64,000 bases of DNA. It comes from Candidatus Atabeyarchaeum deiterrae (GTDB lineage Archaea > Asgardarchaeota > Atabeyarchaeia > Atabeyarchaeales > Atabeyarchaeaceae). Within the stretch, counting starts at the first letter, position 1; each line of letters opens with the position of its first letter. Position numbers and translations under genes: made by a program. The notes under the pieces are model-generated. The model ran no database searches and was not told where the DNA came from. It saw nothing but the letters and a program-made list of their open reading frames with translations. The stretch covers positions 320,001 through 384,000 of the forward strand of contig CP147780.1 in assembly GCA_037310415.1 (NCBI GenBank), in the 5' to 3' direction. Below, piece after piece: positions 1,483-18,810 of this stretch.

Positions 1483-2195
1483 ATGAAGGATCTAACTGAT
1501 GCTAAAGAGAAGCTCAAACAGCGTTTCATTGAAGAGGGTATTGTGAGCAGCTCAAGTGTCATTAATGCATTCATGAATGTCCCCCGGGAAGAATTCGTTC
1601 CCCCGAACATTAGGGAAGATGCGTACGACGACCGCCCGCTTCCAATAGCAGCTGGTCAAACAATAAGCGCACCACATTACTTGGTCTGTCCCAAGTAAGG
1701 TGAAACATGGTTGTCATAATGTGCGAGCAGCTGAGGCTGGAAGAAGGGAATAAGGTATTGGAGGTAGGGGCAGGCTCAGGTTACCATGCAGCTATTTGCG
1801 CGGAAATTGTTGCTCCACCTGCATCTAATAATCCTGGATACGTCTACTCGGTAGAGAGAATATCATCTTTGGCGAAATGGGCCAGGGAGAATCTGAAGAG
1901 AACTGGATACGCTAATCGTGTGAAGGTAATCGTTGGAGATGGGACAATGGGTTATCGAGAAGCCATGCCTTATGACAGGATACTTGTCACGGCTTCGGCG
2001 CCGAGAATACCCGAACCACTGGTAGAACAGCTGAGAGTAGGGGGCACAATGGCAATACCGATAGGGGAAAAGTATGGCTGGCAAGAGCTTGTTCTTGTCA
2101 AGAAAGTGAAAGAGGAAGAAGTTGTTACAACTAATTTTGGTGGAGTAGCTTTTGTGCCGCTAATCGGCGAGCATGGCTGGAATAACGAAGAATAA
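1483..2195 (+). CDS. pcm: Protein-L-isoaspartate O-methyltransferase, split by a 29-nt BHB intron (exons 1483-1675, 1705-2195)
   Basis: VPREEFVP, AYDDRPLPI, GQTISAPH|MV, VLEVGAGSGY, PYDRILVTASA, VAFVPL; the two ORF halves join in frame after intron removal. Confidence 0.93.
1676..1704 (+). other. Putative BHB-type mRNA intron in pcm
   Basis: Central helix CACC/GGTG, bulges AC|A and AA|A, perfect 8-bp inner stem TTACTTGG/CCAAGTAA; splicing yields GCA CCA CAC ATG (A-P-H-M). Confidence 0.88.
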
Positions 2196-2388
2196 CACTT
2201 GTTCGTCCTTCTTGTTTCTTCCATCGCATTGTCGCCAGCAAGGTAAGTCTTCAAGAATCCTCGATGCAGATGTTTCTATTCTCACGGGTTGTTCAAAGTT
2301 TATATATAGGGGTAGAATCGAGAATAGAGAGTATCGTTGGAGTAGTTTGACTCAAGGCGGACGGTGAATTACAACGGCAGTAGAGATA

Positions 2389-3216
2389 GTGAAGAAAGCA
2401 CTCCAATTGAGATCACAAGGATCCACCGAAGAAGCGGCGAAGCTCTATTTGCAGGCTGCAATCGACTTTGAGAAGAATGGAAAAGTTGCCGATGCGGCTC
2501 AAGCATACAACGAGGCAGGACTACTTCTGGCTGAAACTGGAAAAGATGAGGACGGCGTGAAGCTCTACCTCAAAGCAATTGAGGCTTTCGACAAAGTGAG
2601 AGACTCAGAAGGAAAAGCTGATTCCAGCTACAACGCCTGTGTCGCCTTCAACAATCTAGGATCTTACGAAGAAGCTGCCAAAAACTGCTCCGTTGCCTTA
2701 AAGATCTACGAGGAATCAAAGAGTGAGGAGAAAATGGGAGACGCACTGTACGGCCTCGGACTCGCATACATGGGTCAAGGCAAGTTCGATGATGGATTGA
2801 ACTTGTTCAACAGGGCACTTGACATATGCAAGAGAATGGGCAACTTTGAAGGAATCATGAGTATCTCTCTTGATATCGGCAACACGTATCTCAAGAAAGA
2901 GGATTTTGAAAAAGCACTTGATTCTTTCAAATCAGCTCTATCCGTTGCTCAGAAGCTGAAGGACGACGGAAGCATAGCTGATACTCTCAGCGCCATGGGA
3001 GAAGCATATGAACTATCTGAAGACTACAGAAGATCCGCCGACTCGTTTTTGTCCGCGGCGGAAAAATACTTGAACGCAGGAATGGGGGAGCTGGCAGAAG
3101 AATACACTTATCGTATCGAGAACCTGCTTCCAGAACTCACCAGTGTGACAGCCGACAAGATGAAGAAGAGAGTAGAAGAGATACGTAGTGGGATTACCAA
3201 GCAGCAAAAACAATGA
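2389..3216 (+). CDS. Tetratricopeptide/alpha-SNAP-like repeat protein
   Basis: Repeated A..Y..A...Y helical TPR pattern. Confidence 0.8.
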   Translation: MKKALQLRSQGSTEEAAKLYLQAAIDFEKNGKVADAAQAYNEAGLLLAETGKDEDGVKLYLKAIEAFDKVRDSEGKADSSYNACVAFNNLGSYEEAAKNCSVALKIYEESKSEEKMGDALYGLGLAYMGQGKFDDGLNLFNRALDICKRMGNFEGIMSISLDIGNTYLKKEDFEKALDSFKSALSVAQKLKDDGSIADTLSAMGEAYELSEDYRRSADSFLSAAEKYLNAGMGELAEEYTYRIENLLPELTSVTADKMKKRVEEIRSGITKQQKQ

Positions 3217-3265
3217 TCCTTCCTAGATGTTAACAAACACAGCAGACAGGAAAATCAACTCAGGA

Positions 3266-3835
3266 TCACATTACTCTCGTAGAGAATCGCTGGAATATCC
3301 TTTTTGCCACCATCGTAAACGCACTGTTGATTAGCTCACCTGTCTTTGCGCTTGTCTCAAAAAACTCAGCGCCAAGCTGTGACGCTTTTTGCTGTCCTTC
3401 AACCCTCTTAACAGCCCTATCATTATCAAGGTCCATCTTGTTGCCAATCAAAGTGAAGGGAATATCGCCACAAACTTCCTTGACTTCCCTGCTCCACTTC
3501 GGTATGACGTCAAACGATTTTCTGTCTGAAATACTGTAGACTAGCATAGCGGCCCTTGCGCCGGGATAGTAGAAGGATCTTATCCGCATGAATTGCGCCT
3601 GCCCCCCAAGATCCCACAACTGTAACTTCACCTGTTGATCATTCACATTCAAGGTTTTTACGGCAAAATTGGTTCCGATTGTTGTTATGTATTCCCCTAG
3701 AAAGCGATCTTGCGTGTACCGCAGAATAAGGGAAGTCTTCCCAACTCCGCCTTCTCCCACGACTACTACCTTAAATACATACTTAGGGGATTGAAGCATC
3801 TCATTATTCCCCCTTAACCACGTACTAGTAATCAT
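3266..3835 (-). CDS. Rab-like small GTPase
   Basis: GEGGVGKTS, TTIG, WDLGGQ, GNKMD, ETSAK; no C-terminal prenylation Cys; start may be 3799. Confidence 0.93.
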   Translation of the reverse strand: MITSTWLRGNNEMLQSPKYVFKVVVVGEGGVGKTSLILRYTQDRFLGEYITTIGTNFAVKTLNVNDQQVKLQLWDLGGQAQFMRIRSFYYPGARAAMLVYSISDRKSFDVIPKWSREVKEVCGDIPFTLIGNKMDLDNDRAVKRVEGQQKASQLGAEFFETSAKTGELINSAFTMVAKRIFQRFSTRVM

Positions 3836-3915
3836 AATATCAACCTATATTGTTTTCTAGGAGTCACACTTGATCTTCGTTTAATGGTGACTTGTTCGCA
3901 ATGCAAAACAGATTC

Positions 3916-4710
3916 CTACTGACGATTATCGTTTCCGCTTGATTCTGCTTTGACATAAGGGGACATCAGTATCTTCTTTGCCTTCTCGATTATGGAAGGC
4001 CCTATTCCTTTGACTTCAGAAATTGATCCTGTTAAGCGCTTGGTCTTACCCGTCTTGGATTGCTTCACATCGCTTTCGGCGATCCCTTTGAACACACTAT
4101 AGGGTGTCTGGGCCTTTAAAAGAAGACTTTCCGCCAGAGTGACCCCGATGTTTGGCAGACCTGAAATCAAGTATTGTTGTTGTTGAGCGAGGGTAAGCAT
4201 CTTTTCTTTCGGTCTTATAACTACTGGACGCTTATCTTTTACTTGTTCACAGTAGGCCACTCGCTCAATGAACCTGGCAGTATGTTTGACGTCTGGAGTC
4301 GGTACTATTGGCAACTTTAGCTCGACTGCAATACTGGCGATTGCTCCCCACACCGAGCTTTCATTTATCCTCGTGAACTTGAAAATAAGAGACATATATC
4401 CTTCGAGAATAAGAATAGGAATCTCGTAGGCGTCCTTAAGTCTGGAACACTCGTCAAATATCCTGCTAGTGTAGATCGAGTTTGCAAGTTCCTTAACATT
4501 CTTCCTTTCAAAGGCCACACGATCAGACGCTACATAGTCGCCTACGCTCAGTTGTCTTTCAACGACATTAACGTCAAGTTCTCTTAGGTATTCAGCAACT
4601 TTCGAACGGAGCTCTCTCTTATCGACAAATACAGTTACTCTCTGAGAAACGGACTCATCATGCTTATTTTGACATGAGTTCAAAGTTCTTTGGTCCATAC
4701 ACAATAGCAC
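3916..4710 (-). CDS. ERCC4/XPF-family nuclease with HhH domain
   Basis: VDKRE, GDYV, ERK, EG motifs; GLPNIG and VKGIG HhH motifs. Confidence 0.9.
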   Translation of the reverse strand: MLLCMDQRTLNSCQNKHDESVSQRVTVFVDKRELRSKVAEYLRELDVNVVERQLSVGDYVASDRVAFERKNVKELANSIYTSRIFDECSRLKDAYEIPILILEGYMSLIFKFTRINESSVWGAIASIAVELKLPIVPTPDVKHTARFIERVAYCEQVKDKRPVVIRPKEKMLTLAQQQQYLISGLPNIGVTLAESLLLKAQTPYSVFKGIAESDVKQSKTGKTKRLTGSISEVKGIGPSIIEKAKKILMSPYVKAESSGNDNRQ

Positions 4711-5030
4711 TCCCTACGCTAACTTATAAGACAAGCAGAATCCTGGAAACATGTACTAAATGACTTATCGCTATAAATATTCTTAAACATCCGTACGCGG
4801 AAGGAATACTTAGAAGATAGCAGTTCAATTTCGAGATCTAATTAGGTAGCGTTCGAGACCCGTAAAACATAGACATTTCAGCTGCTGATTTGGCTAGCAT
4901 GAGAATACGACATTCAAAGTCATGCGAGAAGGAATCAACTCAATCTTGCTAGTGGTTTAGAAAATCTTCTGACGAGAATTGGAAGACCCAGAATGAAAAC
5001 TTTCTTAATGAAAGCCCGTCTCTTGGTTTC

Positions 5031-5504
5031 CTATCGCTTCCTAGACTTTGCAGAACTGTGTCCCTTGGTTCCTGCGGACTTGGCTGCCTTTTGTTTTTTG
5101 CGAGGCTTCGAGGTTTTCTTTTCTTCTGCACGCATGACCTCGAGTTTCTGTCTTACCTTCTCTCTTTCGCGATCTTCGTCATGCCTCTGAACGCTTTCCT
5201 TCAAAGGTAGTAACTCTCGGTTGACATCGAATAGGCGAAGCAAATGTTGCTTGACTTGTTTGTCGTGTTGTTTTGCAGTGATCTTTCCTGCCTCATACTG
5301 TTCTTCCAGAGTCTTAATCTGGGCACGTAGATTCTCGCATTCAGTAGAAAGCTCAGTTATCTTCTTCACCGTGGAAGCATACTCTTCCTCATTAAGAGTG
5401 ACCAGTTCGTGTTTCGCTCGTTTCGGAGAAGCACGTCGTGCCTTCACGCCAATTACATTCTTCGATCGCATGGGTTGCGATTCCCCCAATATGACTTTCC
5501 GCAT
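5031..5504 (-). CDS. Hypothetical coiled-coil protein with steadiness-box-like hairpin and basic tail
   Basis: LEEQYEAGKIT resembles LEEKYEAGDIS of the Vps23-like protein at 25161-25949. Confidence 0.6.
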   Translation of the reverse strand: MRKVILGESQPMRSKNVIGVKARRASPKRAKHELVTLNEEEYASTVKKITELSTECENLRAQIKTLEEQYEAGKITAKQHDKQVKQHLLRLFDVNRELLPLKESVQRHDEDREREKVRQKLEVMRAEEKKTSKPRKKQKAAKSAGTKGHSSAKSRKR

Positions 5505-5732
5505 CTGCTTTTCCTAAATAATACTCATTGACTTGGGCTTTATGAGCATTTCCGATAAGAGTAGCTTGAACTAAAGATGGTTTGCGAAGTAGACAACGAC
5601 AAGAGCATGGGTGAAGTCCTTGACTTCTCGAGGCTTCAATCAAAGAGGTCACGACAAAACTGGGATTTTTTGGCTTTCTTGTGAAAGAGTGTTTATAAAG
5701 TCGTATTACGTGAGTATTACTGGGACTCGGAT

Positions 5733-6173
5733 TTGAGCGAAGTCAACCGCATGAGTTCACCAAGATCTGGAACATCATCCGGAAAGACCTCTATCTGGCA
5801 GAGAGATGAGCTTCTTCTAGTTCTAAAGTGCACCAGTAGATGCCTCCCTTTGGAAGATATGGTAAAGTTCGTCGACTTCTTGGAAAGTGTCCTACCTTCC
5901 GAGAAAATCATCAAGTTCCCGACAGTTTCCTCCATCAGTAAGCAATTGGAGCAAATGGTCAAAACGGCATTGTTAGAGAAGAGAGGCGGTTGCTATAGGC
6001 TAGCTGAAAGAGGCGTTAAATTCGCGGATGAAGCAGAACTCTCAATGGAAACAGATGAGGAAGTCGATACGATATGGCACGCTGCCAGAAACGCGCTTGT
6101 GAACCTTCCTTCGAATAGGTTGATGTGGGATTCTCACCTATTTTCTGCTTTGAAAGAAATAAAGGGAGAATGA
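5733..6173 (+). CDS. Hypothetical winged-helix protein
   Basis: LEQMVKTALLEK...YRLAERG wing pattern; upstream TTTATAA. Confidence 0.55.
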   Translation: MSEVNRMSSPRSGTSSGKTSIWQRDELLLVLKCTSRCLPLEDMVKFVDFLESVLPSEKIIKFPTVSSISKQLEQMVKTALLEKRGGCYRLAERGVKFADEAELSMETDEEVDTIWHAARNALVNLPSNRLMWDSHLFSALKEIKGE

Positions 6174-6257
6174 TTTGCCCATAAGACAATAGCAAAGGGC
6201 TTTCAATATCAAAATGCATATTAACTGCAGGGCTGCGATAACTAGTTTTGTCAAACC

Positions 6258-6896
6258 TTGGAAGGGTTAGAAGAAATGCTTTCTAGCAGGAAAAAGAGAT
6301 TCTCAAGATTGCTCTACCCTTTTGCGAAAGCCCTCGAGAAGATGCACCTCTCACCTAATGCGGTAACTGCCTTAGGGTTTTTCCTTACCATGTTGGTCGC
6401 CCCTTCCATAATCCTCGCGAATTATATCCTGGCTGGTATATTGGTATTCGCCGCAGGGTTCTGTGACGTGTTAGATGGTGCACTCGCCAGAATGACCAAT
6501 AGAGTTACAGCACTTGGCGGATTCATTGATTCAGTTTTGGACAGATACTCAGATGCCATAATTCTCCTCGCAATGGTATTTGCGGGACTCTGCAACGTCG
6601 TATGGGGCTTCATAGCATTAGTTGGCTCGCTACTGGTCAGCTATTCAAGAGCCAGAGTTGAGGCGTATGGGGTCAAGCACTTCGTAGTAGGATTTGCTGA
6701 GAGACCAATAAGACTTCTCTTACTTGGTTTCGCACTCTTGCTTGAGAGCTGGTTTCCTAGAACTGTGAACTATAGCGTGATTGCTCTTGCAATCCTCACA
6801 CATCTTACCGTGCTTCAGCGTGCCATATCGGCGAAAGATGTGCTTACAGCTGGCAACAAGCAAGCCAAGCCTAGGTCAGATCGAAGGCGTTCTTGA
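6258..6896 (+). CDS. CDP-alcohol phosphatidyltransferase (archaetidylinositol-phosphate synthase-like)
   Basis: SPNAVT, DVLDGALAR...G.FIDSVLDRYSD, SYSRARVE. Confidence 0.93.
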   Translation: MEGLEEMLSSRKKRFSRLLYPFAKALEKMHLSPNAVTALGFFLTMLVAPSIILANYILAGILVFAAGFCDVLDGALARMTNRVTALGGFIDSVLDRYSDAIILLAMVFAGLCNVVWGFIALVGSLLVSYSRARVEAYGVKHFVVGFAERPIRLLLLGFALLLESWFPRTVNYSVIALAILTHLTVLQRAISAKDVLTAGNKQAKPRSDRRRS

Positions 6897-7218
6897 TCAG
6901 TTTGTTCAAGAACGTTTTTGCATTCTCCATCGCACGTTTGCCTTCCTCGGTTATCGCATAGTACTTCCTGTCGGGTTTTCCCTTTCGTTCAGCCACATCT
7001 CGTTTGACTTCTACTAACCCCTCACGAGCCATCTTGTAAAGTATGACATAGGATGATACTGTTGCTGGCTTGAAACCGAATCGATCGTTAATCATGGCAC
7101 GTATCTCGTAGCCATATCGAGGGCGTTCTTGGAGAAGGCGAAGAATGTAGACCCAAAGGTTCTCTCTAGTCAGTTTTGACATGAACCTTCGCAAAGCCTT
7201 GGAGTTGTCTTCCGCCAA
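6871..7218 (-). CDS. PadR-family transcriptional regulator
   Basis: RYGYEI, Y.ILYKM..EGLV, RKYYAITEEG. Confidence 0.9.
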   Translation of the reverse strand: MAEDNSKALRRFMSKLTRENLWVYILRLLQERPRYGYEIRAMINDRFGFKPATVSSYVILYKMAREGLVEVKRDVAERKGKPDRKYYAITEEGKRAMENAKTFLNKLIKNAFDLT

Positions 7219-7351
7219 AGAGCCGACCTCCAGACGAGTAGCAACAGCATAAAGAAACTCTGTAAACGCCTCAAAAGGCAGTTTCTATTCTGGCGCTATT
7301 CACTAATTTAGTTTTTGTATGAGAGAACACCCATATCATGTTGGTCGGATT

Positions 7352-7990
7352 TCATCCTCTTCTCGTTTCTTTTCTATCAAGTTCATAGTGAACAAGGGTT
7401 ATCACTTGAGACGATAGGTAGCTAATGGGACCTACACGCACCCTTTTGGCGCGAAGTTCGTCCAAAACATGTTCATCTTCCGCAGTTAGCCCTTTTTGGT
7501 CTCCCACGATGAAGATCTTCGTGTCTTGAATGCTCATGTCTGCGTTTCTGATGTCTTCACCTTTCTCATGTAAGTAGTAGAGGGCACCCCGTTTGTTGGA
7601 GGTCATCTCCGAACTTATCGCTTCATTGAATGACTTCTTCTCAACTAGTAGTCCTGGCGGGCACGGTGACACATGCATGTCACTCTTCTCAAGATCTCTA
7701 AAAACGTCTTTCAACATTGCTGCCAAAGCTATCTCGCTGAAGGGCAGATCTCTGAGTCTTCCTCCATCAAACCTCAAACTCAGTGGGGGACTAGGGGGTC
7801 CTTCAAGCACGCCAACGAAGACGGTATCTCGCCTGATTCTTCCACTGTCAAGTATTGCAGAAATCGCACAGCGGCATACGACTTCCAGACGTCCGCTCGA
7901 GCTTGGCAGGTCTCTTAAGTTGAAGTCGCTTGACGTACGAGCTGTGCTGGACTTCAATACGAAGATTCGATCCAATCTCAACGCCCTCAT
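7352..7990 (-). CDS. trmY: tRNA (pseudouridine54-N1) methyltransferase
   Basis: DLPSSSGRLEVVCR, IRRDT, LHEKGEDI, FIVGDQKG, VGPISY. Confidence 0.9.
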   Translation of the reverse strand: MRALRLDRIFVLKSSTARTSSDFNLRDLPSSSGRLEVVCRCAISAILDSGRIRRDTVFVGVLEGPPSPPLSLRFDGGRLRDLPFSEIALAAMLKDVFRDLEKSDMHVSPCPPGLLVEKKSFNEAISSEMTSNKRGALYYLHEKGEDIRNADMSIQDTKIFIVGDQKGLTAEDEHVLDELRAKRVRVGPISYLSSQVITLVHYELDRKETRRG

Positions 7991-8272
7991 CGTGATCTAT
8001 TTGGGTCACATGTCAGTAATATAACACGTGACTGCTACCGTTACTGGCGGAGTTCTCATCATGCTCAGCCAAGGCTAGAACTGAGGGTAGATGCAAAAGC
8101 AGCAAACTAACGAAGAACGTGTAGTCGATGCTCACTACTGGAGAACTCATCTCAGGCTAAGTCTCAGCAAAAAGGAGCATTACAGGCAAGCCATAGTATC
8201 ATAAACACTTTTAAATATTCATACAGGTAACTTGAGACCTAGAAGAGAGTTTTTGGATGGTGTTGCAACAGA

Positions 8273-8557
8273 ATGACTAAAAAGAGACGAAGCCGAGGAA
8301 GGTCCAAAGGCGGATCAGGGCGAAAAGGTCTAGTTCAGTGCTCCAACTGTGGAAAACAAGTTCCCAGAGACAAAGCAAAAAGGGTGTCAAAATGGGTAAC
8401 CTTGGTTGACCCTCAAATGGCAAGAGAGCTCAGACAACAGGGAGCGATTCTGCCTCACGAGAAGGTCATGAAGTTCTATTGCATATCCTGCGCCGTTCAT
8501 ACAGGACAAGCGAAGGTCAGGGCAAGAGACGAGAGAAAAATGACAATTCGGCTGTAA
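8273..8557 (+). CDS. rps26e: 30S ribosomal protein S26e
   Basis: MTKKRRSRGRSKG, CSNC..VPRDKA, YCISCAVH. Confidence 0.97.
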   Translation: MTKKRRSRGRSKGGSGRKGLVQCSNCGKQVPRDKAKRVSKWVTLVDPQMARELRQQGAILPHEKVMKFYCISCAVHTGQAKVRARDERKMTIRL

Positions 8558-8680: not shown

Positions 8681-9577
8681 TTGGCGCTTGACATGATAGT
8701 TGTTGGCCATTTCGCCATAGACTATGTTGTCAGAGACGGTCAGTCTCTTCCTCCCTCTTTGGGCGGAACAGTGACATTCTCAAGCCTAGCCGGGGCGCGG
8801 CTGGGAGCCAGGGTCGGAATCGTGTCAAAGGTTGGTCCCGATTTCCGAGATGATCATCTTCTTGTTTTTGCACGGAGTGGAATTGATGTCTCAGCTATTA
8901 AGAAAGCCAAGACCCCAACCACGAAGTACAAGCTTCAATATTCAGGCGAAGAGAGAAGCCTAATGTTACTTTCTAAATGTGATCCAATAGAACCCAAGGA
9001 TGTTAAGAACCTTCGTGGTAACGTTGGTGCTGTTCATTTAGGTCCCATTGCAGGAGAGATTCCGATAGAGACAATTGAGGAAGTTGCAAAATGGGGGGTT
9101 CCAGTTCTACTAGATTTGCAGGGAGTAGTAAGAAAGTTTGACAAAAACGGTAACGTCTCGGTAGAAAGAAACCCACTTCTCCCTGAGATACTCGGCAAAG
9201 TGACGATAGTAAAAGCTACTCTGAAGGAAGGAGAAGTAGCGACTAGTGCATCAGGTCCCGAGAAGGTGGCCTGCTCGCTTATAGACATGGGATGTGAGAT
9301 TGCCATCGTTACGCTTGGAGGAAAAGGATCATATGTTTCAACTCATGATGAAGAATCATTTTCCACGCCTGCTATCAAGCCACGAAAAGTGACTGATTAT
9401 ACGGGCGCAGGAGACGTCTATGCCGGCTCGTTCCTTGTTGAGTACTCGAGGATCCACGACATTAGACGTTCAGCCATTATAGCTAGCACCGCTGTGTCAT
9501 TCAAGGTTGAAGGTCACTCGACCTCTGGTTTCGCATCAAGGCAAGAAATAGAAGAAAGAGCGAAGGGTTACCTTTGA
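8681..9577 (+). CDS. PfkB-family carbohydrate kinase
   Basis: GG-V-F, VTLGGKGS, DYTGAGDVY; TTG start after GGAGG. Confidence 0.9.
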   Translation: MALDMIVVGHFAIDYVVRDGQSLPPSLGGTVTFSSLAGARLGARVGIVSKVGPDFRDDHLLVFARSGIDVSAIKKAKTPTTKYKLQYSGEERSLMLLSKCDPIEPKDVKNLRGNVGAVHLGPIAGEIPIETIEEVAKWGVPVLLDLQGVVRKFDKNGNVSVERNPLLPEILGKVTIVKATLKEGEVATSASGPEKVACSLIDMGCEIAIVTLGGKGSYVSTHDEESFSTPAIKPRKVTDYTGAGDVYAGSFLVEYSRIHDIRRSAIIASTAVSFKVEGHSTSGFASRQEIEERAKGYL

Positions 9578-9607
9578 TCTAAACTAGATAGAAGAGCAGC
9601 TGTACTT

Positions 9608-9955
9608 TCATGTGAGATCGAATGCATTTCTGAACAACTTGGTCAACATTGTTTTTGCAGCTTGCATCGCGCGTTCTCCGTCCTTGGTTATGACGTAATG
9701 CTTCATCTCGGGTTTTTCCTTTCCTTCAGTTCCTCCCTTCTTAGCTTCCACCAGACCATCTTTAGACATCTTGTAAAGTATTACATGCGATGCGAGCGTG
9801 GGAGGATTGAATCCAAACCTCTTCTTTATCGTGGCACGGATCTCATAGCCATACTTCGGGCCCTCTTGGAGAAGACGTAGGATGTATATCCAGAGATTTT
9901 CGTTTGTGAGTTTTGTAAGGAATCTGCGCAAAGCCTTAAACTGGTCAACGGACAA
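9608..9955 (-). CDS. PadR-family regulator (close paralog of 6871-7218)
   Basis: LT.ENLW.YILRLLQE.P.YGYEIRA and C-terminal NAFDLT shared with the paralog; probable TTG start 9955. Confidence 0.88.
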   Translation of the reverse strand: MSVDQFKALRRFLTKLTNENLWIYILRLLQEGPKYGYEIRATIKKRFGFNPPTLASHVILYKMSKDGLVEAKKGGTEGKEKPEMKHYVITKDGERAMQAAKTMLTKLFRNAFDLT

Positions 9956-10175: not shown

Positions 10176-11363
10176 TTACTTAGAAGGTGGTTTTCGGCCA
10201 AATATATGGACCACGGATACTGTCCCACTTCCGCCAACATTGTGAGTGAGACCTATTTCAGGCTGCGGTGAGATTTGCATTTTCTCAGCCTCTCCACGAA
10301 GCTCCTTCACTATTGTTCGAATCTGAGAACAACCTGTAGCCGCAACTGGGTGACCTTTTGCCTTCAAACCGCCATCAACATTCACAGGTATTCTGCCGTC
10401 GACAGCAGTCTGTCCCTCTAGCGCCATTTTACCGCCTTCGCCTTTTTTGAAGAATCCAAGGTCTTCGGTTGCTACTATCTCAGCAATTGTAAAACAGTCG
10501 TGGACCTCGGCGATTTGAACTTTCTCTGGACCCACGCCTGCCATCTTGTAAGCCATCTTGCTGGCTTCAACTGCGGCCCTCAGTGACGTGAGATCATCTC
10601 TCCGGAACGTCGCCAGTGAATCCGTGCCCGCGCCGCTACCTAAAACGTAGATAGGTGCATCGGTGAATTTCTTTGCTATATCTGCTCTGGTAACTATAGC
10701 CGCTGAAGCGCCATCAGTGAGAGGGCAGCAATCATAAATGTTTAATGGCTGTGCGACCATCCCAGTCAAGTCTGCTTGCATATATTGTTCCATTGTGATT
10801 GGTCTCCTGAACTGCGCCAACGGGTTGTTTACTGCATTCTTGTGGTTCTTGACTGCCACCGCTCCAAGCATCTGTTTAGTAGTCTTGTAAACATGCATGT
10901 GTCGTTGAGCTACGAGAGCATACATGCCTGCAAACGTTATTCCAAAGTTGCTTTCCCAGTCGGAGTCACCGCCTCGACCCATTTCGAAGAGAACCTGTGA
11001 TGTCCCGATGTCGTGCATTTTCTCCGTGCCGCACGCCAATGCTATGTCTGCGTAGCCTGACGCGACTGCCATCAACGCGCAGCGGAATGCATAGCCTGAA
11101 GTTGCACAAGCATTCTCCACCCTATGGATAGGTTTAGGTAAGAGATTCAGGTAGTCACCAAACCATCCTGAAACATTACCTAGCTGGGTGCCGCCGAGTC
11201 CTGTAAATCCTATGAACACTTCGTTGATGTCCTTGAGTTCAAGGTTATTGCAGTCACTCACGGCATCCAACACTGCCTCAGCAAGCAACTTCGTGCGGTC
11301 TTTCTCATAGAGCTGACCGAACTGTGTCTGACCAACTCCAATAACTGCAACTTTTTCGGGCAA
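10176..11363 (-). CDS. Archaeal/SCP2-type thiolase (acetyl-CoA acetyltransferase, AcaB/PhlC-like)
   Basis: ENACATS, EVHDCF, KGHPVAATG, HNVGG. Confidence 0.93.
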   Translation of the reverse strand: MPEKVAVIGVGQTQFGQLYEKDRTKLLAEAVLDAVSDCNNLELKDINEVFIGFTGLGGTQLGNVSGWFGDYLNLLPKPIHRVENACATSGYAFRCALMAVASGYADIALACGTEKMHDIGTSQVLFEMGRGGDSDWESNFGITFAGMYALVAQRHMHVYKTTKQMLGAVAVKNHKNAVNNPLAQFRRPITMEQYMQADLTGMVAQPLNIYDCCPLTDGASAAIVTRADIAKKFTDAPIYVLGSGAGTDSLATFRRDDLTSLRAAVEASKMAYKMAGVGPEKVQIAEVHDCFTIAEIVATEDLGFFKKGEGGKMALEGQTAVDGRIPVNVDGGLKAKGHPVAATGCSQIRTIVKELRGEAEKMQISPQPEIGLTHNVGGSGTVSVVHIFGRKPPSK

Positions 11364-11397
11364 TTTGATTTCTCTCCTCCCATAGTATCTTAGTAGC

Positions 11398-11850: not shown

Positions 11851-11908
11851 TTGGTTATTCACCACGCTTTTGCTGAATTCCAATACTACTTACCGATAGC
11901 GAGTTTTC

Positions 11909-12970
11909 CTACAGTCCAATGTAGGAGACCTTCATTTTCTTTGGAATCAGATTCTTCTGCTTGGCGTACTCAATGTAACTAAGGTACATTTTCCGCTCAA
12001 TGAGTTTTGCGAAGGAAGGTGACGCGCGCTTCCCTTCAATTTCGTCCGTCACTAATAGGCTGATAGCGTCCGATGCGCTGGAACCTCCGTAGGCAACAGC
12101 GAGTATCCTTTCTCCTGGTTGGGCCACGTCCAACACGGCAGCAAGACCCAGTGGCACTGAGGCAACCCCCGTGTCACCTGTATTCTGTATGACCATGCCT
12201 TTCTGCGTCACAGCAGGTTGTAAGCCAAGTTTTCCTGCGGCAACGAGTGGCCAATCACCGTTAGGCTGCTGCAATATAATGTGGTTGAAGTCTTCGAAGC
12301 TCTTACCGACCTTACTCACCAAGTTCTTGGCTGCTTCAGAGACATGCCAAACATAGCCATAGTCCTGAGCGAATCTCGGATTGTCTAGCGCTTGAATAAC
12401 GTCGGTTTCCGCTCCCGTCCTCCACCTATCTGCAAACTCTGAGGTCATCGAACTGGAAGCTTCTAACTCGGCAATCGTGCCACCGCTGCCAACGACAAAA
12501 GCTGCAGCGCCGCATCCAACCCCTTGTTCTGTCTCTGGAATATTTCCTGGTGGTCCCGAAAGGACATCCGATGCTACGACAATAGCGCGTTTCCCTCTAC
12601 CTGACGAGACGTAGTCGGACGCAGCTATTAGTGCCGATATTCCGGCCTTCTCAGAATGGGCGAAGTCAGCCGTATAGATGTCTGCTCTCACGCCCAGAGC
12701 CAAAGCAATCGTAGGCGCGGTCATCTTAAGCGTATATGGAGCTGATGTCGACGCCCAGAATACTGCATCAATATCTGAAGACTCTGCCCCAGACGACCTT
12801 AAAGCGGAGATAGCGGCCTCGGCACCCATAGTCGTCGCGTCTTCGTCGAATGCAGGGACGGTTTTCTCGTTGATTCCTTTAACGAGGAATATGTTCCAAG
12901 TTTTTATGTACTCGTCTTTCTTAATCCTGAACCTAGGCAGGTAAGCCCCGTACCCTATGATACCTACCAT
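11909..12970 (-). CDS. HMG-CoA synthase-fold protein with degenerate catalytic residues (PhlA-like)
   Basis: GIIGYGAYLPRFRI, DEDATTM, YGG; the expected ESHPY, ACKAG and HQPN motifs read TSAPY, SEKAG and QQPN. Confidence 0.85.
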   Translation of the reverse strand: MVGIIGYGAYLPRFRIKKDEYIKTWNIFLVKGINEKTVPAFDEDATTMGAEAAISALRSSGAESSDIDAVFWASTSAPYTLKMTAPTIALALGVRADIYTADFAHSEKAGISALIAASDYVSSGRGKRAIVVASDVLSGPPGNIPETEQGVGCGAAAFVVGSGGTIAELEASSSMTSEFADRWRTGAETDVIQALDNPRFAQDYGYVWHVSEAAKNLVSKVGKSFEDFNHIILQQPNGDWPLVAAGKLGLQPAVTQKGMVIQNTGDTGVASVPLGLAAVLDVAQPGERILAVAYGGSSASDAISLLVTDEIEGKRASPSFAKLIERKMYLSYIEYAKQKNLIPKKMKVSYIGL

Positions 12971-13197
12971 AACTTCGCTGCACCCCTTAACGGAACCATG
13001 TTTATCCAGTTGTACGTGTCTACATTCTTGTTCCATCGATTTATAGACATAGGTTTTGATCCAATAACCCCTCAACTTGAGGTGACTTGGCATTTGGATT
13101 AGGGTCATCCTTTCAACGGTTAATTTAATAAGTCTTCTTGGTTAAATTAAGAGCAAATCTGAATTATCGAATACTTAGTTCGGTGGGTATACGTAAA

Positions 13198-13494
13198 ATG
13201 AAGATTAGTGATTTGAAGGCAGGAATGAAAAAGGTTGATCTCGCGGCCAAGGTCTCGGACATAGGAGAACCAAGAGACGTGAACACAAGATTCGGGCCTG
13301 CTAGAGTAGCAACAGCAACGCTATCTGACGACTCTGGTCAGGTGAAGCTCTCCTTATGGAATAAGGACATTGATAGGGTGAAGGTAGGAGATACAGTAGA
13401 CATCAAGAATGGTTATGTCAACGACTTCAGAGGGGAGCTACAGCTTAATGTGGGGCAGTATGGTAAACTAGAGACAGTTAAGGGCAAGAAATAG
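13198..13494 (+). CDS. Single OB-fold ssDNA-binding protein (crenarchaeal SSB/RPA-like)
   Basis: MKISDLK, DDSGQVKLSLWN, NGYVNDFRGELQLNVG. Confidence 0.9.
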   Translation: MKISDLKAGMKKVDLAAKVSDIGEPRDVNTRFGPARVATATLSDDSGQVKLSLWNKDIDRVKVGDTVDIKNGYVNDFRGELQLNVGQYGKLETVKGKK

Positions 13495-13582
13495 GAAGAC
13501 AGTATCTCGTCCCTTCTTACTTATTTTGTACAGACTACAGGCATTGCATGAGCGGACGCAGTTGTGATGTCCACGCGATGAT

Positions 13583-14470
13583 TCACATCTCAGTTAATTC
13601 CTTGGATGGAATGAATCTAGTGCGCGGATCTGCAAGTATCCTATCTAGGAGCGACAGAATCATCTGTTTGTCTTCGGGGAATTTAGCCTCGAAGTCAACG
13701 TAGTCTGAGACATGGTCATTGAATATTTCACTGTGAACATTCAGTCCTGCGATGATTTCCCTTTGTTCTTTTATTATCTCGTATGGCGTCAGTAACTTGA
13801 AACTACCTTGTTCAACTTCCTCGAAAAGAGGTGTGTTCGGCAGTATGTTGAGTGTTCGGAACCTGATGAAATGCGGGTCTATTTGATTAAGCGTTTCAGC
13901 TGTTCCTCTAGCATGCTCTTCGGTCATGTCCTTTCCACCCAGCCCCAGAAGGACATACAGAGAGAGTTCTATTCCGGCCTCTTTTATCCTGCGTCCAGCC
14001 TCTATGATGGTTTTTGAGATGGTTCCTTTCTTCATCAGCTTCAAGACTCTGTCACTTCCGCTTTCAAGCCCCATGTGTATTCTTGTCAGACCAGCTTCTT
14101 TGAACTTGATAAGTTCGTCTGGGGTCTTACTTATTGCAGACCTCGCGGACGAATAACATGTAATTCGCTTCAATTCTGGAAAAGTCTGCGTTATCTTGTT
14201 TAGGACCGAGAGAAAGAACTCTGTTGGTAGGCAAGTCATATCCGAGCCTGTCAAGAAAACAGTAGTGTAATGATCTGAGTAGAACCTCTTTGCGACGTCA
14301 ATTTGATTGAAGATTTCATCTAGTTCGAGGACCCTAAACTCTTCCCTTTCCTTGTAGATGCCGCAGAACTTGCATTGGTTGTAATTGCAACCCTGGAAAA
14401 CCTCTATGAGTAGACTATATGCTTCTGAAGGAGGTCTGATAAGCACTCTGCCTGAACCCTCAAGTAACAA
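13583..14470 (-). CDS. Radical SAM protein
   Basis: IRPPSEA, CNYNQCKFC, GLESG. Confidence 0.9.
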   Translation of the reverse strand: MLLEGSGRVLIRPPSEAYSLLIEVFQGCNYNQCKFCGIYKEREEFRVLELDEIFNQIDVAKRFYSDHYTTVFLTGSDMTCLPTEFFLSVLNKITQTFPELKRITCYSSARSAISKTPDELIKFKEAGLTRIHMGLESGSDRVLKLMKKGTISKTIIEAGRRIKEAGIELSLYVLLGLGGKDMTEEHARGTAETLNQIDPHFIRFRTLNILPNTPLFEEVEQGSFKLLTPYEIIKEQREIIAGLNVHSEIFNDHVSDYVDFEAKFPEDKQMILSLLDRILADPRTRFIPSKELTEM

Positions 14471-14710
14471 GACAAGTCACCTCATCAAGACGTAGACATG
14501 TCACTCATTGTTGGAGGATGTCTTTCAAATTCGTAACTGCCAACAAGGTACTAGGTTTTCTTAGGAAGATTTAAATCAATAGCTGAAAAACCACTATGTA
14601 ACACCAAGCAGAGGATTTTGCGGAAAACGTTGCGGCAGAAGAGCACTGCAATCTAGTCAAGGAGAGGACAGATCAGGCTTTAGTTGCACTGCATCCGGAG
14701 GATCTGGTGA

Positions 14711-16141
14711 ATGAAGATCAAGAAAGAAGCAAACTTCAGCGAATGGTACGATGAAGTGCTTCAGGAAGCCGAGCTTGTTGACGTTAGGTACAATGTGAAG
14801 GGATTTATCATTTACATGCCTAACATAATGAGAATCATAAATCAAGTCTACAGATTATATGATGAGGAACTTGATAAAACTGGCCATTCCCTACTGCAAT
14901 TCCCCATTGTCATCCCTTCAAGTAATTTCAGGAAAGAATCTGAGCATGTACAGGGGTTTGAAGAAGAAGTATTCTGGGTGACAAAAGCGGGCAGACATGA
15001 GCTAGACGAGCCTCTCATATTACGACCGACTAGTGAGACTGCGATGTACCCAATGTACTCGTTATGGATAAGAAACTATCATGACCTGCCCATAAAGTAC
15101 TATCAAAATGGCTCAGTTTACAGATATGAAACCAAGGCAACCAGACCTCTCATAAGGGGACGGGAGTTCCTTTGGATCGAAACCCATACTGCACACGCGA
15201 GTCTCGAGAACGCGACAGAGCAGGTTAAGGAGGACATGGAGATAGCCAAGAAGGTCCTGTATGAGAAGTGTGGTATACCTTTCCTGATGTTCGATAGACC
15301 TGAATGGGACAGATTTGCAGGAGCGAAAAGGACGTATGGATTTGACACGTTGTTTCCAGATGGCAAAGCTATTCAGATAGGAACCACCCACCTCCTAGGC
15401 GACAATTTCTCCAAGGTTTTTGATATTCAGTTTGAAGACAAAGGTGGGGACAAGAAATTCGTGCAGCAGACATGCTACGGTCCAGGGATCTCACGTATAG
15501 CGGCATCCATCATCTCTATTCACGGTGACGACTATGGGTTAGTCCTTCCATTTGAGATGGCCCCTGTTCAGGTAGTGATAGTCCCTGTATTGTATAGGGG
15601 AGAGGAGAGACCACTCCTTGAGAAGAGCGTTGAGATCAGGAAAATGCTTGAAGGCGCGGGCATAAGGGTGAAACTTGATGATAGAGATCTCTCAGCAGGA
15701 GCCAAGTTCTATTATTGGGAACTCTTGGGTGCACCTATTAGGTTGGAGATTGGTCCGAAGGAAGTGCAGCAAAGTAAAGTGACAGTTTTTAGGAGGGACA
15801 AGAGAACTCGAGAGAGCTTCGGAGAGCAGAACGTTGTTGACGAAGTGGAGAAGATTGCGGATGACATGCTCAAGTTCTTGAGGGAAAAGGCCTTAGACTA
15901 CATGAACAAGCATACAAGTCAAGTCATGACAAGGGAGCAGTTGCTCAAAGTTGCTAAGAAAGGTGGCTTCGCTAAGATTCACTTTTGCGGCAGGAAGGAG
16001 TGCGCTGACGATATTAAGAGCAAGACAGGTGGTTTGGAAGTCAGAGGAACACTATTTGAAGCTGAAGAAGTACCTAAGGGAAGTTGCACTTGGTGCGGCA
16101 AACCCTCAATTCAAGTCGTGTATGCTGCAAAATCATATTAG
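14711..16141 (+). CDS. proS: Prolyl-tRNA synthetase (archaeal/eukaryotic type)
   Basis: FSEWY, LRPTSET, PLIRGREFLW, QTCYG, C-terminal AKSY. Confidence 0.97.
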   Translation: MKIKKEANFSEWYDEVLQEAELVDVRYNVKGFIIYMPNIMRIINQVYRLYDEELDKTGHSLLQFPIVIPSSNFRKESEHVQGFEEEVFWVTKAGRHELDEPLILRPTSETAMYPMYSLWIRNYHDLPIKYYQNGSVYRYETKATRPLIRGREFLWIETHTAHASLENATEQVKEDMEIAKKVLYEKCGIPFLMFDRPEWDRFAGAKRTYGFDTLFPDGKAIQIGTTHLLGDNFSKVFDIQFEDKGGDKKFVQQTCYGPGISRIAASIISIHGDDYGLVLPFEMAPVQVVIVPVLYRGEERPLLEKSVEIRKMLEGAGIRVKLDDRDLSAGAKFYYWELLGAPIRLEIGPKEVQQSKVTVFRRDKRTRESFGEQNVVDEVEKIADDMLKFLREKALDYMNKHTSQVMTREQLLKVAKKGGFAKIHFCGRKECADDIKSKTGGLEVRGTLFEAEEVPKGSCTWCGKPSIQVVYAAKSY

Positions 16142-16182
16142 GGTAAAGAGGTTCTAGCTCCTAGTAGTGTAAGTATCATAGT

Positions 16183-16578
16183 TTGATGATAGTCACAGAG
16201 AGGCTGATATTGTTGCCATTATATGATTTGCTGAAGAAAAGGCTTGGAGAGGCGGAAAAGTACATCAAAGAAGACTCGAAAGTCAGGAATGTTCTGAAGA
16301 TGGTAGGGAAGATCAAAGTAAATGTAAAAACTAACGACACTAATGAACACGTAGGCGCGTCGATAGGTTCTGATGGCGTGGAAATATTCAGAAAGGCGAT
16401 CGACGACCCAGCTATCACAATATCAGGAGACAGCAAGATACTGACTGGATTGGTAACCAGCCCTAGCAGAGCAAAGTTCGATGAGGCACAGCAGAAAGAG
16501 CAAGTCAAAATTGAGTCGCATGGATTGAAAGGCAGACTAGCAGTGTCAAAGGTCAAGGATCTTCTATCACAAGGATAG
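16183..16578 (+). CDS. SCP2 (sterol carrier)-like domain protein
   Basis: DDPAITISGD...A...QVKIE pattern. Confidence 0.55.
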   Translation: MMIVTERLILLPLYDLLKKRLGEAEKYIKEDSKVRNVLKMVGKIKVNVKTNDTNEHVGASIGSDGVEIFRKAIDDPAITISGDSKILTGLVTSPSRAKFDEAQQKEQVKIESHGLKGRLAVSKVKDLLSQG

Positions 16579-16690
16579 GATTGAATAAAACGCAATCGCA
16601 GGCGAGTGCCTGCTGAGTCTTGAGGACAACTATAAATACCGAACTGTCCATTATTACTTGTCTAAATAGGTTAGACTGAGGATTCTGATC

Positions 16691-17284
16691 ATGAGCAGTG
16701 AATCGGAAATAGTTGACGTCTTATCAAGGGTAGCGAATATCTTTCTTCAGGCCGTAGATGCTCTCGAAAGCAGGATGTACACCATAGAGCAAAGAATCGA
16801 GCAAATTGAAAGGGCATTAGTTGATTCAAGAACGATGGGGGCTCCCGCGGCTAGTAGGGGTCCGCCTCCAGACAATCGAGGAATTCTACCTGCAATAGCG
16901 CAGGAGACTAGGAGAAGTCCTCCACCACCGGTGACTGCTCCGCCTGCACCAATGCCCCAGCAACCCCAAGCTTATGGTGCTCCTCAGCAACAGTGGGGAG
17001 CCCCAAGACAAGATGCTTATCAACAGCCACCTCCCCAAGGCTATCAAGCAAGGCCACAACCACCTCCGCCACAGCCGCAAGGATACCAGCCGCAGAGCCA
17101 ACCTCAAGGATATCAACCGCAGCCGCAAGGTCAGCCGCAGGGTTACCAGTCTGCGCCACCTGGACAGCCGCAACAAGCGCCTCCGCCGACCTCAGGGAAT
17201 CCATTAAACGTGCGTCAGGCCGTCACAGGTGAGCTCAAAGAGATCTTTGCCAGAATGAGAGCCCGGGCTGAGGGGAGAGGATAA
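16691..17284 (+). CDS. Coiled-coil / Pro-Gln-Tyr-rich / C-terminal helix protein
   Basis: N-terminal heptads, QGYQ repeats with PPP runs, terminal ELKEIFARMRAR helix. Confidence 0.75.
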   Translation: MSSESEIVDVLSRVANIFLQAVDALESRMYTIEQRIEQIERALVDSRTMGAPAASRGPPPDNRGILPAIAQETRRSPPPPVTAPPAPMPQQPQAYGAPQQQWGAPRQDAYQQPPPQGYQARPQPPPPQPQGYQPQSQPQGYQPQPQGQPQGYQSAPPGQPQQAPPPTSGNPLNVRQAVTGELKEIFARMRARAEGRG

Positions 17285-17401
17285 ACTGGCGACTCTGTGT
17301 AGAGTACGTTCTTTTCCGTCAAGAAGGCGACAGACTGGCTGAAAACTAGGCGTGGCGTTATTTCTAGTTACGATAGGCTCTTAAGAGGAATCTATTATTC
17401 G

Positions 17402-18810
17402 TTAGAAGTAGTCGGAGAGGCTTTGTTGAGCGCGGTCTCCCTGTTTCGGTTTTGCCGCGGTTTGATCCTTTGCTCTCAGTGATTCTTTCTTCTCGTTGAG
17501 ACTGTTGCTACTTTCGACTGGAGGTGCCTCATCTTCGAATATTATTGGGTAACCATACGTGCCGTCGTACCCTGGTCTGAAGCGAATCTTTTTCTCCCTG
17601 ACTCTGAGGATCGCATCGGCGAGTCTTGCTCCTGAAATTGAAGATATTTCTTCTCTTGAAGCTTCGAGAAGAACATGTAACTCATTGGGAAACTTCTTGA
17701 GCAGTTTGCCATATTCTTCCCAGACACCTTTTGCAAAGACGTCTTTCATCCCCAAGGCAACGGAGATTATCTCTTGAAGTGGGATCAAACAAACATAAGG
17801 TATGGCACCCTGGAGTATGTAGCCCTCAGGTCTATCGGCTAGTTCCTCGATCCTATGCAGAACGCCAACTGTCAGCTTTTTCCTACAAACAGGGCACATG
17901 TTCCCATACTTAGAAGCTTCTTTCGGACTAAGTACGACGTTACAGTCTCTGTGACCAGTGTAATGATATTTCCCATACTCTGGATTTGTCTCAATTGTCA
18001 TCAAGAACCTTTTGGGGTCCTTCTTGCGGATCACGTCAATTATCTCTTTATATGTTACCCCATCCAGTTGAAACACATTTGCTTCCCTGCCAAGACGGTA
18101 GGGCCATGGACTATGGGAGTCGCTGTTGCTCACCAACGTATATTTGTCCAATGCAGAAAGTCGCCAGTTCATCATGGGGTCAGAGCTTAGACCTGTCTCA
18201 ATCGCATGGACGTTCTTTGTTTGGTCTTGGAAACACTCCTCAATACTGTCAAATCCACTCCTTGAGCCAAACAATGAGAACCATGGAGTCCATGCATGTG
18301 CTGGAATTACCTCGTTCCAGTTATCAATTTCCATTATGACCTCAGTCAGTTCTGCAGCTGCAACTCTTAGCTTTGGCCTTCCGTCTGAGTTGAGGTCACC
18401 GTACTTTGAGATTCTGTCAGCTACTTGGTCGGCCACATCTAGGTTCGGACACAAGATTATGAGGTGGATTCGTTTTGGCTCTCCTTTGGACTGGAACCCA
18501 GCCTCAACTTCGCAGGTCGCCATGAAGCGCACTGACTCTGCAGCATTTGCATTGTTTAGAACATACAGCCCACTGTTATCAACCTCTGACAAAGAAGATT
18601 TGCATTCTGCAAGCCATCTCGGCATTGTGAATTGGAGACTCGTCTACTTCAGAAGGACTTGCAGCACGAGTTATCCCCTGTGCCGAGGAGAGTCAGACCC
18701 TTCATCTTGGCTTGTCTCTCAAGGTTGACTAGATTCATTTGTTCGCTAGTGGCAGCTGAGTACTTGCTGTGGATATGGAGGTCTGCAATAACTTTCAGAC
18801 TAGATTCCAC
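17402..18810 (-). CDS. endoQ: Endonuclease Q (PHP-family), split by a 41-nt BHB intron (exons ~18810-18673, 18631-17402)
   Basis: Exon 1 ADLHIHSKYS...GTGD; exon 2 FTMPRW...PAHAWTPWFS, ETGLSSD, SNSDSHS, CPVC; start GTG 18810 or CTG 18798. Confidence 0.88.
18632..18672 (-). other. Putative BHB-type mRNA intron in endoQ
   Basis: Central helix GGGG/CTCC, bulges AT|A and AA|T, inner stem ACTCGT/ACGAGT; splicing yields GGG GAT TTC ACA ATG (G-D-F-T-M). Confidence 0.87.

What the first reader, a model, noticed from the sequence alone, without database searches (positions are those of the whole stretch)
1483..18810. Candidate system: tRNA-type (BHB) splicing of ordinary protein-coding mRNAs in an Asgard archaeon
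Seen: two unrelated housekeeping genes within 17 kb (pcm, endoQ) each contain one short insertion in a conserved motif. Each insertion carries an in-frame stop, has a length not divisible by 3, and folds into a 4-bp helix flanked by two 3-nt bulges with a strong intronic stem. The standard BHB cut (after the second bulge nucleotide) restores frame and motif exactly in both cases, and the same geometry explains all 12 tRNA introns here. Established: the archaeal EndA endonuclease and RtcB ligase splice BHB introns, and the classic mRNA example is crenarchaeal cbf5. Inference: two cases in 64 kb suggest many more genome-wide. Such genes would be mis-annotated as pseudogenes, and their expression would depend on splicing in a lineage close to eukaryotes (compare the non-spliceosomal IRE1/RtcB splicing of XBP1/HAC1). 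Both hosts are damage-repair enzymes (isoAsp proteins, deaminated DNA bases), which hints at splicing-gated regulation.
Basis: partly seen in the sequence, partly recalled or inferred. Interest (0 to 1): 0.95.

Follow-up and report, generated by a model that had tools for sequence, protein, structure and literature searches.

The report
tRNA-type introns inside Asgard protein genes
Two ordinary enzyme genes of this Asgard archaeon (and at least eight more elsewhere in its genome) are each broken by a tiny hairpin insert shaped like a tRNA intron. They can very probably make protein only after the tRNA-splicing enzymes cut and re-join the mRNA, which published work documents in a coding region for only one archaeal gene (cbf5).

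Summary
Each folds as a 4-bp helix between two 3-nt bulges plus an inner stem. Cutting after the second bulge base restores frame, motif and profile continuity.

The pcm insert sits at the same codon in 9 genomes of 5 families. Inner stems differ but stay paired: 97% of cells against 74% in shuffles (0/500). The genome encodes a crenarchaeal-type alpha/beta EndA and RtcB.

A motif-free census against an Odin-like genome found 9 such mRNA introns here. These are pcm, endoQ, cbf5, valS, glyA, gatE, a radical-SAM gene, a PNP/MTAP-like gene and a RuBisCO-like gene. The Odin-like genome has 4 confirmed by BHB geometry, including its actin homologue.

Not shown: no RNA contig crossed either junction. 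I found 6-7 tRNA introns in the window, not 12. Host functions are diverse, so the "repair-enzyme regulation" hint has no support.

This scan has noted the same thing on other DNA (41 notes, at least 29 genomes). I found no paper on it.

The parts
1483..1675 (+). pcm exon 1 (ATG at 1483; the last base is the first base of the split His codon)
   Evidence: Pfam PCMT profile positions 3-59; NCBIfam PRK13942 positions 4-63
1676..1704 (+). pcm BHB intron, 29 nt, phase 1, in-frame TAA. The 4-bp helix pairs 1670-1673 with 1699-1702; the bulges are 1674-1676 and 1703-1705; the inner stem is 1677-1684/1691-1698
   Evidence: the MFE structure equals the BHB. Same site in 9 genomes with compensatory changes
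1705..2195 (+). pcm exon 2, including the stop codon
   Evidence: Pfam PCMT profile positions 61-208, E 2e-44
17402..18631 (-). endoQ exon 2, including the stop codon
   Evidence: TIGR00375, E 7e-58. Intron-less relatives align as a single HSP across the junction
18632..18672 (-). endoQ BHB intron, 41 nt, phase 0, in-frame TGA. The helix pairs 18675-18678 (GGGG) with 18634-18637 (CTCC); the bulges are 18672-18674 and 18631-18633; the inner stem is 18666-18671/18638-18643
   Evidence: Same site in the two other genomes of the family, with GGAG/CTCC
18673..18810 (-). endoQ exon 1 (46 codons counted from the GTG at 18810)
   Evidence: TIGR00375 profile positions 2-39; contains DLHIHSKYS..GTGD
687..799 (+). 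tRNA-Lys(CTT) with one 36-nt BHB intron at 710-745
49192..49330 (-). tRNA-Gly(TCC) with two BHB introns: 49254-49282 (29 nt) and 49206-49240 (35 nt, T-loop)
   Evidence: ARAGORN miscalls it as tRNA-Arg
58418..58525 (+). tRNA-Ala(GGC) with one 31-nt BHB intron at 58464-58494
58610..58774 (-). tRNA-Val(GAC) with introns at 58685-58739 (55 nt, possibly nested) and 58640-58672 (33 nt)

Best explanation
Both inserts are true bulge-helix-bulge (BHB) introns in the pre-mRNA.

How it works. The last six exon-1 bases supply one strand of the 4-bp helix plus two bulge bases. The four bases before the last two intron bases supply the other strand. An intron hairpin stacks on this helix. The heterotetrameric alpha/beta splicing endonuclease (EndA) cuts after the second base of each 3-nt bulge. 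RtcB then joins the exons and probably circularises the intron. Only the joined mRNA encodes full-length PCM and EndoQ.

The outer exon-exon helix is almost absent, so these are relaxed motifs. Relaxed motifs need the broad-specificity crenarchaeal/Asgard type of enzyme.

Shown here: anatomy, in-silico restoration of the proteins, conservation with covariation, and presence of the enzymes. Inferred: that cutting and joining actually occur. I take splicing to be constitutive, and the introns to be persistent, near-neutral passengers of an intron-rich lineage rather than switches.
For: 1. Removing the inserts restores profile continuity to within the single split codon.
2. The pcm intron lies at the same codon in 9 genomes of 5 families, at lengths of 28-32 nt. 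It has six unrelated inner-stem sequences, all paired. The 4-bp helix switches between CACC/GGTG and CGCC/GGCG.
3. Covariation for pcm: 97% of cells paired against 73.8 +/- 3.1 in shuffles (0/500); 26 double-change cells against 8.4; slid registers reach 51.5% at most.
4. The endoQ intron is shared by the three genomes of the family. A second, independent BHB intron sits at another endoQ site in two other families.
5. These are the sole copies in the genome, the exons are otherwise intact, and they are 62-83% identical to family relatives.
6. EndA alpha is most similar to the Aeropyrum pernix alpha subunit 3P1Z_B (E 2e-46), and the loop region aligns without gaps. There is also a His-less beta subunit and one RtcB.
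7. Asgard archaea are reported to have (alpha-beta)2 EndA with the L1 loop (PMC5829648).
8. The same cut rule resolves the window's tRNA introns.
9. It also resolves eight further split genes here, with contiguous Pfam coordinates.
Against: There is no RNA evidence. The RNA contigs of run X8 lie on five pieces of the window, but none crosses a junction.

Folding energies are not exceptional against shuffles.

The outer helix is only 1 bp next to the second bulge, so strict BHB criteria are not met.

endoQ has an alternative register (5-bp helix, bulge UAA) that would not restore the frame.
Confidence: 0.85

Rival explanations
1. Splicing is real but acts as a regulated switch, comparable to HAC1/XBP1, that gates expression of repair enzymes.
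For: In-frame stops mean that unspliced mRNA yields only short N-terminal products. The introns sit in catalytic motifs.
Against: The ten hosts are functionally unrelated: valS, glyA, gatE, cbf5, rio2, a radical-SAM gene, a PNP-like gene, a RuBisCO-like gene, pcm and endoQ. Close relatives do without the introns. No sensor or conditional element was seen.
Confidence: 0.08
2. The two genes are pseudogenes, and the inserts are decay products.
For: Each reading frame is broken by a stop and a frameshift.
Against: The same insert site and structure are kept in 9 genomes of 5 families, with compensatory changes and no other lesion. These are the only copies in the genome.
Confidence: 0.02
3. The ribosome bypasses the insert (translational hopping as in T4 gene 60) or shifts frame.
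For: There is a hairpin and a stop just after the break, as in gene 60.
Against: There are no matching take-off and landing codons at either site (sequence). The conserved exon-intron 4-bp helix and 3-nt bulges have no role in hopping. Identical geometry occurs in the tRNA genes.
Confidence: 0.02
4. Each gene is expressed as two separate polypeptides that assemble.
For: pcm exon 2 begins with ATG. Public gene calls start there.
Against: The break falls inside a contiguous conserved motif. In G001 and G002, endoQ exon 2 reads FTSP with no start codon at that point. This model does not explain the covarying BHB.
Confidence: 0.02
5. The inserts are assembly or sequencing artefacts.
For: None specific.
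Against: The inserts appear in independent assemblies of 9 genomes and in more than 20 environmental protein clusters truncated at the same residue. If the genome is what it appears to be, it is a curated closed genome validated with long reads (PMC11291895).
Confidence: 0.01

Closest known systems
cbf5 pre-mRNA BHB intron of Crenarchaeota (Watanabe 2002; Yoshinari 2006; Yokobori 2009, PMC2738675)
   Same: A short BHB intron inside a coding sequence, often with a relaxed motif. It is cut between the 2nd and 3rd bulge bases by a heterotetrameric EndA. [quoted passage not shown]
   Different: The hosts here are pcm and endoQ, plus at least seven other non-cbf5 genes in one genome. The lineage is Asgard, not Crenarchaeota. 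A 2020 paper still counted cbf5 as the only coding-region case (PMC7714728).
Non-canonical tRNA introns of Atabeyarchaeia and Freyarchaeia (PMC11291895; bioRxiv 10.64898/2026.10.13.758758)
   Same: Same genomes or close relatives, same BHB geometry and size range, presumably the same enzymes, and introns gained or lost between relatives.
   Different: Those papers treat tRNA genes only. A search of both texts found no mention of mRNA introns.
HVO_1309 5'-UTR BHB intron of Haloferax volcanii (PMC7714728)
   Same: An mRNA substrate of the splicing endonuclease.
   Different: It lies in the 5' UTR and does not interrupt the reading frame. The Haloferax enzyme is of the euryarchaeal type; its subunit type is from my own knowledge and was not checked here.
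IRE1/RtcB splicing of XBP1/HAC1 mRNA in eukaryotes
   Same: Non-spliceosomal removal of a short frame-shifting mRNA intron, with RtcB as the ligase in animals (established knowledge).
   Different: The nuclease there is IRE1 acting on twin stem-loops, not EndA acting on a BHB, and the event is stress-regulated. No IRE1 was looked for here. This is an analogy only.

Membership tests
Archaeal BHB introns (EndA/RtcB substrates) | Two 3-nt bulges on opposite strands separated by a 4-bp helix, each bulge lying 3' of its helix strand | tested here: met
   pcm: CACC-ACA...GGTG-AAA. endoQ: GGGG-ATA...CTCC-AAT (one G-U pair).
Archaeal BHB introns (EndA/RtcB substrates) | Cutting after the 2nd bulge base yields a functional product | tested here: met
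   Frame and motif are restored. Pfam and NCBIfam profile coordinates become contiguous apart from the one split codon. Intron-less relatives align across the junction
Archaeal BHB introns (EndA/RtcB substrates) | Strict hBHBh' form: outer helices of at least 2 bp flanking both bulges | tested here: not met
   The outer exon-exon helix is 1 bp in both genes. In endoQ a 7-bp helix lies further out, across an enlarged loop. These are therefore relaxed motifs, as in many cbf5 and non-canonical tRNA introns
Archaeal BHB introns (EndA/RtcB substrates) | The structure is kept by compensatory change in relatives | tested here: met
   pcm: 8 of 11 pairs have double changes, 97% of cells are paired, and 0/500 shuffles reach this. 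endoQ: only 3 genomes, with GGGG/CTCC against GGAG/CTCC
Archaeal BHB introns (EndA/RtcB substrates) | The host encodes a broad-specificity EndA and an RtcB ligase | tested here: met
   Two tRNA_int_endo genes. Alpha is most similar to A. pernix 3P1Z_B and has the Tyr/His/Lys context. Beta lacks the His. There is one RtcB
Archaeal BHB introns (EndA/RtcB substrates) | Spliced RNA and excised or circular intron are observed | tested here: inconclusive
   No RNA contig of four runs crosses either junction
Translational bypass (T4 gene 60 type) | Matching take-off and landing codons flanking the gap | tested here: not met
   For pcm, CAT followed by a landing CAT would continue in the wrong frame. 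For endoQ there is no GAT before TTC (sequence)

The most novel reading that the evidence does not exclude
EndA/RtcB splicing of mRNAs may be an old, lineage-wide layer of gene expression in Asgard archaea. It would touch essential and 'eukaryote-like' genes, including an actin homologue in the Odin-like genome, with some sites shared with Crenarchaeota (the cbf5 Asp codon). At least some of these introns may be conditionally spliced, so that protein output is gated at the RNA level in the closest prokaryotic relatives of eukaryotes.
Probability: 0.12. Interest if true: 0.92.

Novelty: new member of a known kind. Interest (0 to 1): 0.78.

Why it matters
Since 2002 the textbook list of archaeal protein-coding introns has held one gene, cbf5. 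Here a single Asgard genome has at least ten, and related classes have more. This has four consequences.

1. Gene callers truncate or split these genes. The closest public PCM entries are exon 2 only. Metabolic reconstructions and marker-gene sets for Asgard archaea are therefore affected.

2. Making these proteins depends on the tRNA-splicing machinery.

3. Transcription and translation are coupled in archaea. Unspliced messages ought to yield truncated products, which raises the question of how that is avoided.

4. It gives a concrete, testable system for protein-only mRNA splicing in the lineage nearest to eukaryotes.

Tried and rejected
RNA evidence. No RNA holder was listed for the stretch. 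Laying four metatranscriptome runs gave five contigs from X8 at 9.4-17.1 kb and none over either intron. This says nothing for or against splicing.

Structure-first genome scan. I searched for a strict BHB whose removal fuses two coding ORFs, using a home-made coding model. There was no excess over shifted-cut controls at most settings, and an apparent excess at L<=40, stem>=5 (15 hits against about 6). I then tested 15 of these candidates with Pfam, and all 15 are adjacent unrelated genes. I draw no count from this scan.

In-frame introns. A search for in-frame introns, seen as stops inside single HSPs, gave nothing convincing.

Rejected census hits. The split at 897.4 kb looks like two genes that are fused in the reference.

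Spliced-form proteins. The closest PCM proteins in the public collection gave no spliced-form protein. P0051 is a frameshifted exon-2 variant.

Taxonomy. EndoQ relatives in named genomes were at most 53% identical (DPANN and bacteria) and gave no taxonomy.

tRNA genes. A further sweep for hidden tRNA genes found none beyond the four.
Full report
WHAT IS THERE

The ORF map shows pcm as two ORFs in different frames (1465-1698 and 1707-2195, plus strand). It shows endoQ as two ORFs on the minus strand (18649-18810 and 17402-18625). Reading the sequence and splicing in silico places a 29-nt insert at 1676-1704 and a 41-nt insert at 18632-18672 (minus strand).

Both inserts contain an in-frame stop (TAA, TGA). 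Both lengths leave remainder 2 when divided by 3.

The pcm insert reads: CACC, bulge AC|A, 8-bp stem with a 6-nt loop, GGTG, bulge AA|A. The endoQ insert reads: GGGG, bulge AT|A, 6-bp stem with a 22-nt loop, CTCC, bulge AA|T.

Cutting after the second bulge base gives ..QTISAPH|MVVIMCE.. and ..LLGTGD|FTMPRW... In Pfam PCMT, exon 1 ends at profile position 59 and exon 2 begins at 61. NCBIfam PRK13942 gives 63 and 65, so only the split His codon is missing. TIGR00375, the EndoQ-like family, covers both endoQ exons.

IS IT MORE THAN CHANCE?

The fold alone is not. A loose BHB pattern occurs about 240,000 times in the genome. The folding energies are ordinary: z -1.97 for pcm, whose MFE structure is the BHB, and z -0.76 for endoQ, where the MFE picks a neighbouring register. 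The case rests on comparison with relatives.

COMPARATIVE EVIDENCE

Among 41 related genomes, 39 have pcm. In nine genomes from five families the two exons are separated by 28-32 extra bases at exactly this codon. In the others the exons abut.

The nine inserts all have the same architecture, but their inner stems have six unrelated sequences. The 4-bp helix is CACC/GGTG in two genomes and CGCC/GGCG in seven. This pairs a synonymous third position of the Ala codon with an intron base.

RNAalifold recovers the BHB from the alignment. With that structure 97.0% of cells pair, against 73.8 +/- 3.1 in shuffles (0/500). There are 26 double-change cells against 8.4 +/- 2.4 (0/500). All slid registers reach 51.5% at most. 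An accidental one-column error in my first attempt gave the same control.

One relative's intron is 30 nt, which is in frame but carries a TAG. Frame-shifting is therefore not a rule.

The endoQ intron is shared by the three genomes of the family (41 nt here; longer inserts at the same site in the other two, one of them in frame with stops). Its helix there is GGAG/CTCC instead of GGGG/CTCC. Two other families carry a different BHB intron in endoQ, at ..EYG|KYH... For the 28-nt and 32-nt versions the standard cut again restores the motif; a third genome (G008) has an insert at the same place whose helix has a mismatch.

pcm is single-copy here. The only other endoQ match is a 54-residue fragment.

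MACHINERY

The genome has two genes with the tRNA_int_endo domain and one RtcB.

The 238-aa protein is most similar to the catalytic alpha subunits of the heterotetrameric enzymes of Aeropyrum, Sulfolobus and Pyrobaculum (3P1Z_B, E 2e-46). The alignment runs without gaps through the loop region and includes the GxDFxVY...H...K context. The 198-aa protein lacks the histidine and resembles structural units.

This agrees with the report that Asgard archaea have (alpha-beta)2 EndA with the L1 loop, which confers broad specificity (PMC5829648). That matters because the outer helix here is only 1 bp, so the motifs are relaxed.

HOW MANY?

I fetched a complete 1.42-Mb Odin-like relative. I then aligned its ORFs to this genome without using any RNA motif. 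Of its ORFs, 1,220 had matches.

Split, colinear matches with 28-53 unexplained bases marked nine genes: pcm, endoQ, cbf5 (41 nt), valS (31), glyA (41), a radical-SAM gene (53, inside CxxxCxxC), a PNP/MTAP-like gene (38), gatE (41) and a RuBisCO-like gene (28). In each, a BHB with the standard cut reproduces the ortholog's sequence. Pfam coordinates are contiguous for valS (73/75), glyA (54/56) and the PNP-like gene (173/176), and consistent for the rest.

That makes ten. This is a lower bound, limited to genes with an Odin ortholog and two alignable exons.

A structure-first scan added nothing: 15 of 15 candidates tested were neighbouring genes.

The reverse census showed that the Odin-like genome has at least four such introns itself. 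They lie in a kae1-like gene, a radical-SAM gene, a gcvP-like gene and its actin homologue (34 nt, MYS|VWIGGS, helix GTAC/GTAC).

cbf5

The cbf5 intron splits G|AT of the catalytic Asp. This is exactly the site described for Crenarchaeota (PMC2738675).

It is present in the three family genomes and in four further families, at lengths of 26-41 nt. Helix variants include CTCT/AGAG, CACT/AGTG and CCTT/AAGG. One genome has a cbf5 intron at another site.

tRNAs IN THE WINDOW

I found four tRNA genes: Lys(CTT), Gly(TCC), Ala(GGC) and Val(GAC). They carry 6-7 introns at non-canonical places, and all are resolved by the same rule.

IDENTITY AND LITERATURE

The genome is one closed contig of 2,756,679 bp. 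It has a 2.8-Mb single-contig sister genome and a 3.6-Mb single-contig relative. This fits the Atabeyarchaeia and Freyarchaeia genomes of PMC11291895, which reports introns in 92-95% of tRNA genes. The identification is an inference.

Neither that paper nor the 2026 tRNA-intron census mentions mRNA introns. Seven literature searches found no report of BHB introns in Asgard protein genes. A 2020 paper states that cbf5 is the only further BHB intron reported in archaea. The same paper adds one of its own, in the 5' UTR of HVO_1309.

The closest public PCM proteins (70-77% identical, 22 clusters) are all 145-162 aa. The ones I read start at MV(I/V)IMCE, that is, at exon 2.

WHAT IS NOT SHOWN

Splicing itself has not been observed. 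RNA contigs of one wetland run match the window in five places, but none spans a junction.

Nothing supports regulation, because the hosts are functionally diverse.

This scan holds 41 similar notes in at least 29 genomes. Two of them claim RNA contigs that lack the intron. I did not check those, and they are not counted as evidence here.

VERDICT

These are real features, and very probably spliced introns of the known BHB kind in new host genes. They are part of a genome-wide and lineage-wide pattern that the literature I could search does not describe.

Noticed in passing
L142-L143 (G003:C1 about 535,640-535,673, plus strand): The actin homologue of the Odin-like genome is split by a 34-nt BHB intron (helix GTAC/GTAC, bulges TC|A and AA|A). 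Removing it gives ..APPERMYS|VWIGGSILASL.., which matches this genome's actin.
   Followed up: partly
L102-L104 (G008, G028, G037 endoQ loci): A second, independent intron site in endoQ (..EYG|KYH.., about residue 266), seen in two other families. The inserts are 28 and 32 nt in G028 and G037. G008 has a mismatch in the 4-bp helix.
   Followed up: partly
L198-L220; G000:C1:395677-395717: The cbf5 intron splits the catalytic Asp codon (G|AT), the same site as in Crenarchaeota. It occurs in at least 5 Asgard families. G013 has a 41-nt intron at a different cbf5 site (..LDKP|PGPT..).
   Followed up: yes
whole genome G000 (ten verified mRNA introns): Eight of the ten introns are in phase 1, and nine of the ten start with A. 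The Odin-like genome's introns are of mixed phase. This could be chance or a sequence preference of the bulges.
   Followed up: no
whole genome G000 and G003: The introns sit inside the most conserved motifs: the catalytic Asp, the radical-SAM CxxxCxxC, the RIO P-loop, RuBisCO GGGIHxHP, and EndoQ GTGDFT. My census needs alignable flanks, so part of this pattern is detection bias.
   Followed up: no
window 49225-49321 (minus strand): ARAGORN calls a 97-nt tRNA-Arg(TCT) here. The gene is really tRNA-Gly(TCC) at 49192-49330 with two introns. Genome-wide, ARAGORN finds only 24 tRNAs, many with implausible introns.
   Followed up: yes
G000:C1:1101128-1101289: An 80-codon open frame is 87% identical to EndoQ residues 119-172 and has one TGA inside the match. 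It is a fragment copy of endoQ far from the gene.
   Followed up: no
G000:C1:1596142-1596178; G003:C1 about 21,038 and 161-163 kb: Apparent -1 or +1 frameshifts without extra bases. The G003 locus at 21 kb is matched by about 20 paralogous ORFs of G000, so it may belong to a multi-copy family, perhaps a mobile element with a programmed -1 shift.
   Followed up: no
window 9406-9634, 10268-10460, 12048-12205, 15604-15779, 16818-17102: Contigs of a wetland metatranscriptome run (X8) match these five stretches exactly. The organism is therefore present in that RNA library.
   Followed up: no
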